From Tubiluchus corallicola (taxonomy: Eukaryota > Animalia > Priapulida): a stretch of 64,000 nt of DNA. Position 1 is the stretch's first letter. Every line of letters begins with the position of its first letter. The DNA is taken from contig JAQGDQ010000267.1 in the NCBI GenBank assembly GCA_030141605.1, forward strand, positions 249,115 to 313,114. Direction: 5' to 3'. Both the position numbers and the translations under genes were made by a program. The notes below the pieces were generated by a model. It searched no databases and was not told where the DNA came from. It worked only from the letters and a program-made list of their open reading frames with translations. Shown piece by piece: positions 1,133-22,160 of this stretch.

Positions 1133-4100
1133 TTATACATCCACTGTATCGTCAACATTATCTTCCAATTGATGATTTCTTTCATCCTCTGTTTTTTTTT
1201 CTTCATTTTCATGTGAAGTCTTCTTTTCAATTTCTGCAAGGTTTTCGCCAGATCTCTTTTTCAAGATTTCGCTAGAATCCTTCTTTTCAATTTCTCCTGA
1301 CAACTTTTTGTCAACTCCTTCACTAACATCACCTGACTCCTTCTTTTTTACTTCTGTCACGACTTCACTAGATTTTCGTCGCTCAATTTCATCGGATCGT
1401 TTTTTTTCCAGATCAGTTGGTTCTCTCTCTTCCAGGTCACCCGACTTCTTTTTTTCAACTTTTACACTAGTTTCACTTGATTTCTTTTTTTCAAGTTTAC
1501 CAGATCCAGTCTTTCCAATTTCACCAGATGTCGTTTTTTCAATTTCTCCAGATATTTTCTTCTCAATTTCACCAGACATTGTTTTTTCAATTTCTCCAGA
1601 TCTTTTCTTCTGAATTTCACCAGACGTTGTTTTTTCAATTTCTCCAGATCTTTTCTTCTCAATTTCACCAGACATTGTTTTTTCAATTTCTCCAGATCTT
1701 TTCTTCTCAATTTCACCAGATGTCGTTTTTTCAATTTCTCCAGATCCTTTCTTCTGAATTTCACCAGACGTTGTTTTTTCAATTTCTCCAGATCTTTTCT
1801 TCTGAATTTCACCAGACGTTGTTTTTTCAATATCTCCAGATCTTTTCTTCTGAATTTCACCAGACGTTGTTTTTTCAATATCTCCAGATCTTTTCTTCTG
1901 AATTTCACCAGACGTTGTTTTTTCAATTTTACCAGATCTTTTTTTCTCGATTTCACCAGATGTCTTCTTTTCAATTTCCCCAGATTTCTTCCTTCCAATC
2001 TCTCCTGATTCCTTCTTTTCGAGGTCGCCTGACATTGTCTTCTCAATTTCGCTTGATTTCTTTTTAACTACTTCAACCGATTTTTTTCGTTCAGCTTCTA
2101 TTTCCTTCACTTTGTCTTCTTCTAAACTTGTAAGCTTAGAATCAAAGTCCTCATCTATACCCGACATTGTGTACTCAGACAATTTTGTACACTTCCAGTG
2201 TGAGGTAAGCTGTGGTGGTTGTTCCTCCTCCATCTCATCCTCATCGACTGGAATCTCCTTCACGACATAATCTCCATGCTGTTCGCACCCAGTTTCAAAT
2301 ACGTATTTCCCTGGTCCAGCAGGAATGTCATTGACAAATTTGCCCATATACCTGTGGTTTCTGTGAATGATGAGGCAAGTACCATCACGCTTACCATTCT
2401 CCCACATGCCTATGTATTTGCTACCAGTTTCAGCATGGGTGTAAGTACCCTTACCATGGCGAACATTGTCACGCCACTCTCCCTCATAGATGTCACCATT
2501 GATATATTTGTATATACCATGACCGTTGCGTTGGTCCTCATTCCAGCTTCCTTCATACTGTGAGCCATCAGGATAGATAAAGGTACCTTGGCCATACTTT
2601 TTGCCAAATGCATACTCTCCAATGTATCGTGCTTTACTTCGAAACCTGGTAAAGAAAACTGTGAGAATGTTACCTATCTTTAAAAAAGCACGAATGGTTT
2701 AAATACAATGTCACATTCATGCACTTAAATCAGTAATAAATTGTAGGACCTGTTTGCTGAGGTGAGATTGCTGTTCTGAACAGTTGTGCACAAGAATAGT
2801 GTGCCCAAGACAATCATTTCCTCTCCTTCTTTAAAAATAGCTACCAGGCAATATAAGATATTTTTAATTAGTAAATATTCAATGGCGTAGAAGACCAGAG
2901 GTCTTTTCTCTTTTTTGTGCACGTGTGTCTTTTTGCACTAGTGTTTTTCTTTTACTAATAGGTATCTTTACGACTTTTGTTACTTCAAAATTATTCATTC
3001 ATCACAGCCTATATCTGTATCTGTTTCCACTTGGAAAATAAGCCATTGAATGCTCTTAGCTTATAGCTAGCACATACCAGTGATACAAAAAATTTTGAAT
3101 GTATTATTGTAGCATTAATTTTGGTATTGAATCACTTACATTCTTATAATTTGCCCCCCCCCTTCCCCATAGCCCATCTTTAATGGTTATGATGGCTACA
3201 TTACTACCATCAATTATATCTAAATATTCTATACAATTATAGTTATTACTACAAGTATAATCTCCCCCACTTAAATTTGGGTACATATATGTGTATATGT
3301 GTATATGTGTATATGTGTATCGTTGTATATACAAGTAATATGGTGCATTGTAATACAAGTAAGTGGTGCATTGACAGATAATCACATAATTCAAATTCGT
3401 AACTATTTAAATTTTTTTTCACTCTTTAAGGCTCACACAAAGTCGTAATTACATATAATGTTTTCCTTTCTCAACTTTCAGGTTTATTGCTCTTATATAA
3501 TTGCTATTATTACAACATTATTACATCCTTATTTACATTAAGTTATCTACAGAAGCATGGATAACTATAATCATTTTTTTCATTTAAGTAAGGTGAGTGT
3601 GTTAATGACCGTATGGTCGCACACTCACCTCGCACTACTCAAATTATTTTATTTAAAATTTATTAATGTGTTTGATATTGTATTTTTTGATGTGTGAAAT
3701 AAAATTCATAGTTCATAGTGCATTAAATCTGACATTACTAATACAAAGGGTACAATTAAGTGTAGAAGAATGATTTTTTTATATAATTGGGGGCTTGAGA
3801 AAACTGCATTTTCTCATTTTCTTAAATGTCACACAGCCTGGTTGTGTGAGTGCATATCTGAGACTGAAATAAAATATATGGACACAAACATAATATTTTC
3901 ATAAAACTTATAAATTACTTAATATTTACAACAACATAAATATTGGTAGAATGCAGCTATTAGTCAAAACACCTTCACAAATGTGACATTTCAGGAACTT
4001 GCACGAAAGTTGTTTTATTTTGAATTGAAAACATATTTAGAGATATACTCTAATTTACATAAAAAAATTTTTTTGATGGGTTATTTCAAGTAGCAAATAA

Positions 4101-19969: not shown

Positions 19970-21381
19970 GAAGCAAAAGAAAAATACTACAAGACAAAAG
20001 TGATCTGCGAATGACATATTTCATTGAACATCAAAAGAAGTGAAACAAAATTTAATTTTAATTAAAGTGTGTGTAGTGATATAACCGTGTCTAATAATTA
20101 TGTGTATTATTATGCCCAAGAAATGAAATATTCATGTGGTGATATGCTCAGGAGTTCATGCCACCACCCATATTCTTATTCTTATTCTTCTCGAAAAACG
20201 CGCATACTTTCATATTCATGTAAATGGTGCATTTTATTATAGCACACCACATACAGTTAGTGAGAGCAACTTTTACATAAGTGCTACATAACGAGCAGGT
20301 GAAAGGTATCACACAACAAGCATTTGTGCAGGCTGCTGAATATAAGCGATATGCAAATACATGTAATTAATAATGACGACGTAGAAATTATGTTAAACGT
20401 GTGTCTAACACACCACAAGTAATTGTTCAAAGTGCTTATTACATTGGCAACTATGAATTCACATAGGCGGGGCTGAACTGTCAGTCTAGCATGTCTTTTA
20501 AGTCTTGAAACTCCCCTGATAGCAACTGTTAGGAGAGCTTGCAATTTCTTGCTAAAAGTAACTCGCAAAGCAGTTCACACTTGTGAGTTTACTGTCAGTG
20601 TGAAAACTCGCGACATAAACTGGCTAGTCTGAATGCGCTGTTACATATATATTGTCAGTTAATATCTGATTTAAAGCAAAGCCGGGCCCATAGTCAAACT
20701 ATAGGTCAAAATACTCTACTCTACTATGAAATAAAATATTCGCACGCAGATATGCGCAGGAGTTCATGCCGCTACCCTTATTCATATTGCATATGCTATT
20801 TAGATGGCTAAGGTTAAAGTCTTATGAATAAGTGTGCAATAAGTTAGAAGCTTGTAGTTTCAGCAAAATATCTTTGATCTAACAATTCACTCTTATTTAC
20901 ATGAAGATAACAAATTTTGTACCACTAAATGCAGGTGTAAACTTTCAGCCTAACATCGAGTCTGTTTGTCAAATTTCTAATAAACTGCCGCTGCAATTTT
21001 GCTCTGCTGTGAGACATATCTTATCTTTGTGCATTCCAAAGAAACATTTCACTAAAACTTTGCTTCCAGAATAAGATCTAACTCAAGCATTGTCTTTAAT
21101 GTGGAAGAATCACGTCTAGGGGCTGAAACAACCACAAAAATGATCCAAGTTGGAACCCCTTAAGAAGAACTTTTAACACGAATATTGGGATCCCTGGGGG
21201 ACTGTCCTAGTCCAATACTTGTCGCGCTCTACCTGGCAAGTGCACTTCAAATAAAAAACGAAATCCTGAAATGATGGTCATGATTACAATACTACTCTCT
21301 GTAATAACTTTCCTCAACATATTCTGGATCACTTCTATCCTGCATTGGAATCCTATGAACCATTCCTTTGTGACCAACAAT

Positions 21382-21871
21382 CTTGTTCTTCTTCCCAGCT
21401 TTTCCCTATTCGGGGTCGCCGTTGTGAATGAGTCTTCTCCACGCATTCCTGTTGTTGACCATCTCTTCATTTATGTCTTCAATTCCCACAAGATTTTCAC
21501 CGACTCTTCCTTTCAAGTGTCCATACCATGGCAATCTTGCGAGGCTTCCACTACTTTTACTGTTCCTCTGATATTATTATTTCTAATTTTATCTCTTCTT
21601 GTTATTCCCACCATCCATCTCATCATCCTCATCTCCACCACACCCATTTTCTTCTCTTCGGTCTTCTTTAAAGAAGCTGCTTCCAGCCCATAGATTAGAG
21701 CGGGTCTGACCACTTCTTTGTGGACTTTCCCTTTAAGTCTCACCGACTCATTCATAGAAGGTTTTGGCGCAGTTTTTACAGGCGGATGCCCTTCCTGACC
21801 CTAACCCTCCCTATTTATCCAGGCTTGGGACCGGCACTGAGTTGGGTTGGCTTGCCCCCCCCGTGGCTAGG
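21382..21871 (-). mobile_element. Non-autonomous, internally deleted RTE retroelement with 19-bp TSD
   Basis: TSD ttcctttgtga(c/t)caacaat at 21363-21381 and 21872-21890; RTE-type C-terminus RLKGKVHKEVVRPALIYGLE...EMRMMRWMVGITRRDKIRN; 3' end gcgacccc...gggaaaagctgggaagaagaa. Confidence 0.85.
21798..21850 (-). ncRNA. Twister ribozyme-like motif
   Basis: Minus strand CCAACC-CAA-CUCA-GU-GCCGG-UCCCAAGC-CUGG-AUAAA-UAGG-GAGGG-UUAGG matches the twister core GCCGGUCCCAAGCCCGGAUAAA...GAGGG. Confidence 0.75.
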
Positions 21872-21953
21872 TTCCTTTGTGATCAACAATATGTAGACGA
21901 TATTGGATGGATTATTGTATCTAATTTTCAAACTAACACAATAAAAAGGATTG

Positions 21954-22160
21954 TGCAACGTGTGTACGGTTTGGCAACTTCTCTCGCAACTTGTTGCAAC
22001 GTGTGTACGGCTTGGCAATTTCTCTCGCAACTTGTTGCAACATGTGAAGGGTTTGGCAACTTCTCTCACAACTTGTTGCAACGTGTGGGCGGTTTGGCAA
22101 CTTCTCTCTGAGAGAAGTTGCGCAACAAGTTGCGAGAGAAGTCTCTCCGTCTAAACGTGT
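21954..22160. repeat. 41-bp tandem repeat (~4 copies) followed by an inverted partial copy; MITE-like internal array
   Basis: Units at 21954, 21995, 22036, 22077, then gagagaagttgcgcaacaagttgcgagagaag. Confidence 0.85.

What the first reader, a model, noticed from the sequence alone, without database searches (positions are those of the whole stretch)
21363..21890. Mini-RTE retroelement carrying a twister ribozyme, mobilised as a unit
Seen: a ~490-bp element bounded by a 19-bp TSD (1 mismatch). It has a 5' leader with a twister core (P4 CCGG/CUGG, L4 UCCCAAGC, GAGGG partner for CCC, P2 CUCA/UAGG with one mismatch, weak P1), then an ATG fused directly to the RTE ORF C-terminus and a GAA-rich tail; endonuclease and RT are absent. 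Known: twister ribozymes occur in RTE-clade elements such as Schistosoma Perere-3. Inference: a SINE-like parasite made of the two LINE ends plus a ribozyme. The copy keeps ~28 nt upstream of the predicted cut (21844/21843), so it derived from uncleaved RNA.
Basis: partly seen in the sequence, partly recalled or inferred. Interest (0 to 1): 0.85.

Follow-up and report, generated by a model that had tools for sequence, protein, structure and literature searches.

The report
Twister-headed mini RTE retrotransposon family
This 490-base insert is one young copy of an abundant shortened jumping gene that has lost its enzymes and begins exactly where a predicted self-cutting twister RNA would cut, so it likely came from cut RNA rather than uncut RNA, a further example of an arrangement already known from a blood fluke and from fly elements.

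Summary
The element is real. It spans 490 bp on the minus strand (21382-21871) between 19-bp duplications with one mismatch, and reads show the empty site. It belongs to a multi-copy family sharing the leader/C-terminus junction. It derives from an RTE-type LINE by three deletions, not one, and lacks endonuclease and RT. The leader matches Rfam twister-P1 (E 1.9e-8; 44.6 bits, below the 67.2 cut-off).

P2 is CCUA(21871-68)/UAGG, followed by GC and a long P3. The predicted cut is 21874/21873, at the element boundary, and other copies end at 21873 with unrelated flanks. The 'uncleaved RNA' claim therefore fails; this resembles Perere-3. The parent's start codon is probably 21751, out of frame with the C-terminal piece.

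Cleavage, expression and an intact partner were not shown. Both halves are published (Perere-3 twisters; bipartite RTEs and R2 SIDEs). This scan noted seven similar elements on other DNA. Verdict: new member of a known kind, interest 0.3.

The parts
21872..21890 (-). Target-site duplication, copy upstream of the element; its last two letters (AA, 21873-21872) are also the first two letters of the predicted cleavage product
   Evidence: empty-site joint skipping 509 nt; loose ends at 21873
21382..21871 (-). Internally deleted, non-autonomous RTE-type retroelement, 490 bp (492 counting the shared AA)
21801..21878 (-). Type-P1 twister ribozyme (predicted). P1 5' strand is host-derived (21878-21875; 2 of 4 pairs); cut 21874/21873; P2 21871-21868 with 21813-21810; GC 21867-21866 pairs with L4; P3 21865-21835; P4 21834-21831 with 21822-21819 (one G-U in this copy); L4 21830-21823; GAGGG 21809-21805; P1 3' strand 21804-21801
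21745..21800 (-). Rest of the RTE 5' leader with two ATGs: 21755 (in frame with the C-terminal piece, 80 codons) and 21751 (likely the parent's start; reads M-S-R-stop here)
   Evidence: leader 80-91% identical to six other leader matches; frames; parent-like loose end at 21745
21744..21745 (-). Junction 1: loss of about 840 codons (endonuclease and RT); shared by many copies
21541..21744 (-). Segment of the RTE ORF C-terminal region (P0013 residues 841-909)
   Evidence: tblastn, 74% identity
21477..21540 (-). Next ORF segment after a ~16-nt frameshifting deletion (junction 2, near 21540); P0013 residues 914 to about 934
21406..21476 (-). Last ORF segment and stop codon after a 30-codon deletion (junction 3, 21477/21476)
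   Evidence: loose ends at 21476 carrying the deleted stretch in all four runs
21382..21405 (-). Short 3' UTR and GAA-type tail
   Evidence: sequence; loose ends at 21381 with unrelated flanks in 19, 15 and 18 contigs of X1, X2 and X4
21363..21381 (-). Target-site duplication, copy downstream of the element

Best explanation
This is a young copy of an abundant non-autonomous, internally deleted RTE-type retroelement whose first base lies at the predicted cleavage site of its 5' twister ribozyme, and it likely spreads by being cut out of longer host transcripts by that ribozyme and then being copied into new sites by the enzyme of a full-length RTE. Shown: the boundaries, duplication and empty site; the shared junction; the loss of endonuclease and RT; the twister fold with covarying P2 and P3; and copies whose 5' ends coincide with N|AA. 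Inferred steps: (1) a source copy is transcribed, probably by read-through from host DNA; (2) the twister, with a weak P1 completed by host sequence, cleaves to leave a 5'-AA end; (3) the RTE protein, supplied in trans, recognises the retained 3' end and GAA tail and primes reverse transcription at a nick; (4) the cDNA end joins the target, here using a 2-nt AA overlap, giving a 17-19-bp duplication and rebuilding a ribozyme with a new P1.
For: On a four-sequence alignment, P2 pairs in 16 of 16 cells with 3 of 4 pairs changed on both sides, and P3 in 23 of 24 cells; 1 of 500 shuffles reached the covariation score. Loose ends at 21873 in 5 contigs of X1 and 6 of X2 with agreement 0.56 and 0.53 indicate unrelated flanks; no listed loose end lies beyond 21873. 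Junction 1 is bridged by 8 of 32 listed pieces from all four runs (two studies), and summed depth runs flat across it. Parent-like continuations exist on both sides of junction 1 (X4, 21745 and 21741) and at junction 3. Published: cleavage gives a 5'-AA end, G*AA substrates cleave, and duplications abut the cut in Perere-3 (PMC8501958 sections 19, 21). P1, P2 and P4 imperfections are tolerated in natural twisters (10.1101/2024.07.11.603121 passages).
Against: No cleavage assay, transcript or 5'-end map. The Rfam score is below gathering (44.6 against 67.2). The largest loose-end cluster is at 21862, not 21873 (47 contigs in X1, 7 in X2, 12 in X4). It lies at the edge of an 8-nt homopolymer and cannot be split between run-length variation and true 5' truncation. 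The covariation set is only four sequences, chosen because they kept the upstream strand (L006 and L007 lack it; L010 duplicates L008; four phage twisters were left out), and one of the four (L008) lacks the AA. The leader does not fold better than shuffles (z 0.4-1.3), and an alternative helix is about as stable as the P2 fold (-16.1 against -16.6 kcal/mol). An intact autonomous partner was not recovered, only 30-nt loose ends. X1-X3 are one sample and may be the window's source.
Confidence: 0.8

Rival explanations
1. Same family, but the 5' end is set by an internal promoter or inherited from the parent's end. The twister is carried along passively and is not needed for the small element's spread.
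For: No expression or cleavage data. The family is young (at least 9 listed majority differences in 490 bp; 2 in 21700-21873), so an intact ribozyme may reflect little time rather than selection. Kojima 2018 regards bipartite LINEs as probably Pol II-transcribed, with 5' regions responsible for transcription (PMC5786205 section 23).
Against: Ends coincide to the base with N|AA, the known product end. In 21700-21873 the majority of laid depth differs from the window at only two positions, and at 21821 it has the G-C pair in P4. A cleaving ribozyme would remove anything upstream whatever the promoter.
Confidence: 0.13
2. One reading: a compact twister without P3 cutting at 21844/21843, with about 28 nt retained upstream, so the copy came from uncleaved RNA.
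For: A 3-of-4 P2 can be drawn and its G-U/G-C pseudoknot pairs are invariant. With that P2 forced, the leader folds about as well (-16.1 kcal/mol). Three X1 contigs have a loose end at 21843.
Against: That P2 pairs in 13 of 16 cells, its P1 in 5 of 16, and its covariation is no better than shuffles (141 of 500). The three contigs at 21843 agree at 0.99, so they are one related sequence, not unrelated flanks. Read by hand, their continuation forms seven Watson-Crick pairs with CUCAGUG, which supports the P3 reading. Rfam chooses the other register.
Confidence: 0.03
3. A full-length RTE inserted here and later lost its middle: a one-off relic, not a mobile family.
For: Only one copy lies in the window; single-copy internal deletions of this family do occur (joints).
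Against: Junction 1 is bridged by contigs that differ from the window and from each other, in two studies. Only 1 of the 24 listed loose-end rows sits at 21741 and 1 at 21745. Summed depth over the element is about three orders of magnitude above the flanks.
Confidence: 0.02

Closest known systems
T-variant twister ribozymes at the 5' end of Perere-3 (RTE clade), Schistosoma mansoni (PMC8501958; abstract, sections 17, 18 part 1 of 2, 19, 21, 22 and passages read)
   Same: Type-P1 twister with P3 at the 5' end of an RTE element; duplication abuts the AA of the cut site and supplies the 5' strand of P1; the P1 3' strand starts UU.
   Different: Perere-3 is described as a coding element. This one lacks endonuclease and RT and has a different P2 and P3 sequence. 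Cleavage is shown there and only predicted here. About 19% of their twisters had no downstream domain, so some may be elements of this kind.
Bipartite non-autonomous RTE LINEs: Bov-A, RTESINE1/2, WALLSI3, RTE-N1/N2_Lch (PMC5786205; parts 1-2 of 5, section 23 and passages read)
   Same: Internal deletion joining the RTE 5' end to its 3' end; multi-copy; the paper notes that such elements keep the true 5' end and links this to 5' ribozymes.
   Different: Longer (490 bp against 195-286 bp for the RTE-N examples tabulated), keeps about 340 nt of C-terminal coding sequence in three pieces, and has a twister head; that paper cites HDV-like predictions and does not mention twister.
R2 SIDEs of Drosophila (PMC3414825; abstract and section 5 read)
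   Same: About 500-bp internally deleted LINE derivative headed by a self-cleaving ribozyme that defines the 5' end; depends on an autonomous partner.
   Different: R2 clade, HDV-like ribozyme, site-specific in 28S rDNA, cleavage shown in vitro; here RTE-type, twister, dispersed sites with duplications.
Retrozymes (PMC7761336 passages; PMC4918200 search listing and start of abstract only)
   Same: Non-coding, non-autonomous retroelements with small self-cleaving ribozymes.
   Different: Those use hammerheads and circular RNA. This has one twister, LINE-derived ends and a duplication. PMC7761336 separately mentions twisters at RTE 5' ends as unpublished work.

Membership tests
Type-P1 twister ribozyme (RF03160) | Covariance-model score at or above the gathering threshold | tested here: not met
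   44.6 bits against 67.2, E 1.9e-8; leaders of long RTE loci also fall short (63.9, 61.3)
Type-P1 twister ribozyme (RF03160) | P2 and P4 stems, GC pseudoknot partner, L4 and GAGGG core, N|AA cut site | tested here: met
   P2 4 of 4 Watson-Crick, P4 4 of 4 (one G-U), GC invariant, GAA at the cut site
Type-P1 twister ribozyme (RF03160) | P1 of at least two pairs | tested here: met
   2 of 4 pairs in this copy; host-derived; reported dispensable
Type-P1 twister ribozyme (RF03160) | Site-specific self-cleavage | not testable with these tools
   needs an in vitro assay
Non-autonomous internally deleted RTE LINE (RTE-N / SIDE type) | 5' end and 3' end of a LINE with the enzyme domains deleted | tested here: met
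Non-autonomous internally deleted RTE LINE (RTE-N / SIDE type) | Many copies sharing the deletion junction | tested here: met
   8 of 32 listed pieces bridge junction 1 with 3-9 other letters; junctions 2 and 3 less resolved
Non-autonomous internally deleted RTE LINE (RTE-N / SIDE type) | Target-site duplication, 3' short repeat, different sites for different copies | tested here: met
   empty site; unrelated flanks at 21381; unrelated flanks at 21873; other copies' duplications were not read
Non-autonomous internally deleted RTE LINE (RTE-N / SIDE type) | Strictly two-part structure | tested here: not met
   three deletions, four parent segments
Non-autonomous internally deleted RTE LINE (RTE-N / SIDE type) | Intact autonomous partner in the same genome | tested here: inconclusive
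   only 30-nt parent-like loose ends at 21745, 21741 and 21476; no genome held
RTE clade of non-LTR retrotransposons | Single ORF with APE endonuclease then RT in the nearest full-length relatives | tested here: met
   P0007 (962 aa) and P0013 (987 aa), Pfam PF03372 + PF00078; L006 leader followed by one 1019-codon frame
RTE clade of non-LTR retrotransposons | RT phylogeny groups with typed RTE elements | not tested
   no typed references at hand; the clade label rests on architecture and on recall of RTE C-terminal motifs
SINE in the strict sense | Pol III head derived from tRNA, 5S or 7SL RNA | tested here: not met
   no such Rfam hit; the element starts with the ribozyme
Retrozyme | Hammerhead ribozymes in terminal or tandem repeats | tested here: not met
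   single twister, no terminal repeat other than the duplication

The most novel reading that the evidence does not exclude
A young, promoterless parasite whose life cycle is gated by its ribozyme: it is released only from host read-through transcripts, and after cutting its 5' end refolds into a conserved helix (21871-21865 with 21806-21800; 5-6-bp equivalents in L005, L008 and L009) that blocks re-ligation and shields the uncapped end. Because its ribozymes are still largely intact and each copy has a different host-made P1, the family would let one test directly whether cleavage efficiency decides which copies become sources.
Probability: 0.2. Interest if true: 0.55.

Novelty: new member of a known kind. 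Interest (0 to 1): 0.3.

Why it matters
It extends the Perere-3 rule (5' end = twister cut site, P1 supplied by the target) to a non-coding parasite of an RTE-type element in another animal. It also removes the apparent anomaly of an 'uncleaved' copy. I found no paper on a twister-headed non-autonomous RTE in six searches (open-access library only), but each half is published and the combination is what R2 SIDEs predict. The practical value is a young family whose ribozyme is predicted to be intact, suited to testing how flanking DNA tunes cleavage and which RNA ends an RTE enzyme needs in trans.

Tried and rejected
Whole-genome copy extraction was impossible because no genome is held. Expression: no RNA holder listed, so nothing follows either way. 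Rfam at gathering level found nothing in the window. Minimum-free-energy folding of the leader gave no signal over shuffles, as expected for a double-pseudoknot RNA, and cannot choose between registers. A viral-collection scan gave four twisters with no RTE context, not used further. The host's taxon could not be narrowed: the radial-spoke protein is 42-66% identical to many animal proteins with no close relative. Nearest named relatives of the RTE piece are from decapods, but that does not identify the host. Summed contig depth (X1 about 0.8 million over the element against 300-500 on flanks) was rejected as a copy number, because short overlapping contigs inflate it; I say only 'likely hundreds to low thousands'. 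The idea that the target site is a decayed RT gene got no support from Pfam (0 of 3 pieces) or from a representative search (3 hits, all repetitive proteins judged chance). No thymine stretch is evident about 10 nt upstream of the duplication (signature from PMC6007223, abstract and Results part 1 of 2); one site is uninformative. A text search of Kojima's one supplementary file for the twister core found nothing; sequences held as pictures would be missed. PMC10085705 and PMC6765202 (passages) added nothing specific. A sequence look-up among earlier findings returned nothing.

Full report
Setting. The window is animal DNA of about 35% G+C, with a radial-spoke-head gene, an EGF-repeat gene and a retroelement fragment. 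No whole genome is held, so family-level evidence comes from contigs of four public runs laid on the region. X1-X3 are one sample, possibly the window's source; X4 is a second study.

Boundaries. A 19-bp direct repeat with one mismatch lies at 21363-21381 and 21872-21890. Comparable repeats appeared in 8 of 1500 random draws, all inside tandem arrays. Contigs of X1 and X2 join 21362 to 21872, skipping 509 nt, which is the element plus one repeat copy; X3 and X4 show no such joint. The left flank is itself repeated (summed depth 10,500 at 21276-21339 against 300-500 further out), so the empty site may be another allele or a paralogue. Either way it shows the pre-insertion state. At the 3' end, 19, 15 and 18 contigs of X1, X2 and X4 leave the stretch at 21381 with unrelated flanks.

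Anatomy. The coding remnant matches the C-terminus of full-length endonuclease+RT proteins: P0007 (962 aa) at 77% and P0013 (987 aa) at 74%. Against P0013 there are three deletions: about 840 codons at 21745/21744, about 16 nt with a frameshift near 21540, and 30 codons at 21477/21476. Loose ends carry the missing parent sequence (read by hand): upstream ORF sequence at 21741 (1 contig, X4), the deleted stretch at 21476 (6, 4, 3 and 10 contigs), and a continuation of the leader at 21745 (2 contigs, X4). From the ATG at 21751 the last one reads M-S-Q-N-Q-R-S-E-L-N-A-R, like the N-termini of P0013 and L006; from the ATG at 21755 it stops after eight codons. The parent's start is therefore probably 21751, which in the small element reads M-S-R-stop. 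The 80-codon frame from 21755 is likely an accident of the deletion, though a peptide is not excluded.

Family. Of 32 pieces listed (of 3,074), 8 bridge junction 1 by 31 nt or more on each side. They come from all four runs and carry 3-9 other letters each. Summed depth is flat across the junction and about three orders of magnitude above the flanks. That sum is not a copy number; hundreds to low thousands of copies is my inference. In 21700-21873 the majority differs from the window at 21821 and 21847 only, and 21729 splits about evenly. At least 9 majority differences are listed over the whole element (list truncated), so the copy is young. Depth dips at 21468-21531, so junctions 2 and 3 may not be shared by all copies.

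Ribozyme register. Rfam finds twister-P1 at 21801-21878 (E 1.9e-8, 44.6 bits, gathering 67.2). Its alignment pairs CCUA (21871-21868) with UAGG (21813-21810), follows it with GC and a long P3 (21865-21835; -10.7 kcal/mol for the hairpin), and puts N|AA at 21874/21873. Scans of metagenome and genome contigs gave six loci with the same leader, five of them followed by RTE-like coding sequence. An automated search for a strand complementary to the 3' side of P2 and followed by GC found one in the window, L005, L008, L009 and L010, but not in L006 or L007. On an alignment of the window, L005, L009 and L008, this register pairs 16 of 16 P2 cells with 3 of 4 pairs changed on both sides, and 23 of 24 P3 cells; 1 of 500 shuffles matched its covariation score. 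The set is small and was chosen for keeping the upstream strand. Energy alone does not separate the registers.

5' ends. Five contigs of X1 and six of X2 leave the stretch at 21873 with unrelated flanks, so those copies start with the AA. None of the 24 listed rows lies further out; 103 rows were not shown. A larger cluster sits at 21862 (47, 7 and 12 contigs), at the edge of an 8-nt homopolymer. In X2 its consensus continues through the normal 5' end, but in X1 and X4 it is smeared, so truncation there cannot be excluded. In L005 a 21-nt spacer separates a 3' tail from the UAA cut site, which would fit a collapsed duplication; this is inference. Twister cleavage leaves a 5'-AA end, G*AA cleaves, and Perere-3 duplications abut that end and supply P1 (PMC8501958). 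This copy has a 2-pair P1 and one G-U in P4, both of a kind reported as tolerated (10.1101/2024.07.11.603121), so it is predicted to be active. The claim of derivation from uncleaved RNA is not supported.

Mechanism. Most likely (0.8): transcription from host DNA or the leader, cleavage at N|AA, recognition of the 3' end by an RTE protein in trans, target-primed reverse transcription, and 5' joining, here with a 2-nt AA overlap. Transcription, cleavage and the partner's activity are all inferred.

Comparison. It works like Perere-3 at its 5' end and like R2 SIDEs overall (PMC3414825). It belongs with internally deleted non-autonomous RTEs (PMC5786205), though it has four segments rather than two. 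Twisters at RTE 5' ends are also mentioned as unpublished work in PMC7761336. It is not a SINE in the strict sense. Six searches found no paper on the exact combination; subscription journals, Repbase and supplements I did not open (those of PMC8501958 and the preprint) could hold one. L007 is a separate leader-plus-C-terminus derivative with a different junction. Seven earlier unreviewed notes of this scan describe shorter, decayed elements of the same plan on other DNA. I read them after fixing my reading and did not check them.

Verdict. Real feature; family and twister supported; register and 'uncleaved' claim corrected. New member of a known kind, interest 0.3.

Noticed in passing
window 21871-21865 with 21806-21800 (minus strand): An alternative 7-bp helix closes the minimum-energy fold of the post-cut leader and is about as stable as the P2 fold. 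By eye, equivalents of 6, 5 and 5 pairs exist in L005, L008 and L009, but not in the S. mansoni sequences of Table 1 in PMC8501958. It could be a post-cleavage refold or a by-product of similar P1 and P2 3' strands.
   Followed up: partly
window about 21100-21381 and 21872-21958 (+ strand): The target lies in a broken frame with RT-like motifs by eye (GDCPSPILVALYLA, then DQQ-YVDD across the site; motif likeness recalled), and the flank is moderately repeated. Pfam and a representative search did not confirm it.
   Followed up: partly
window 21954-22108: A 41-bp tandem repeat of 3.8 copies, part of a separate multi-copy repeat reaching about 22157, with strand-switching joints in contigs.
   Followed up: no
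window 21803-21804 and 21843, loose ends: Contigs of a related leader with a different P3 and a different downstream leader point to a second twister-headed family in the same genome.
   Followed up: no
L007:848-1332: Twister-core leader joined within about 30 nt to RTE residues equivalent to P0013 750-889: an independent internal-deletion derivative with a different junction; the contig ends before the 3' end.
   Followed up: partly
L008 and L009, upstream of the ribozyme: Short tandem duplications of the element's first 12-20 nt; in L009 the duplicate supplies a 3-pair P1.
   Followed up: no
L008, L009, L010: RTE-type leaders (with coding sequence in L008 and L009) on small contigs of bacterial genome assemblies; most likely animal DNA contamination.
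   Followed up: no
window 1133-2698 (minus strand): Radial spoke head 1-like MORN-repeat gene in one long open frame with a repetitive C-terminal extension.
   Followed up: partly
run X4 on window 21404-21467 against 21724-21851: Summed depth of the 3' end exceeds that of the leader about 20-fold in X4 but about 1.5-fold in X1; unexplained, and summed contig depth is a poor measure.
   Followed up: no
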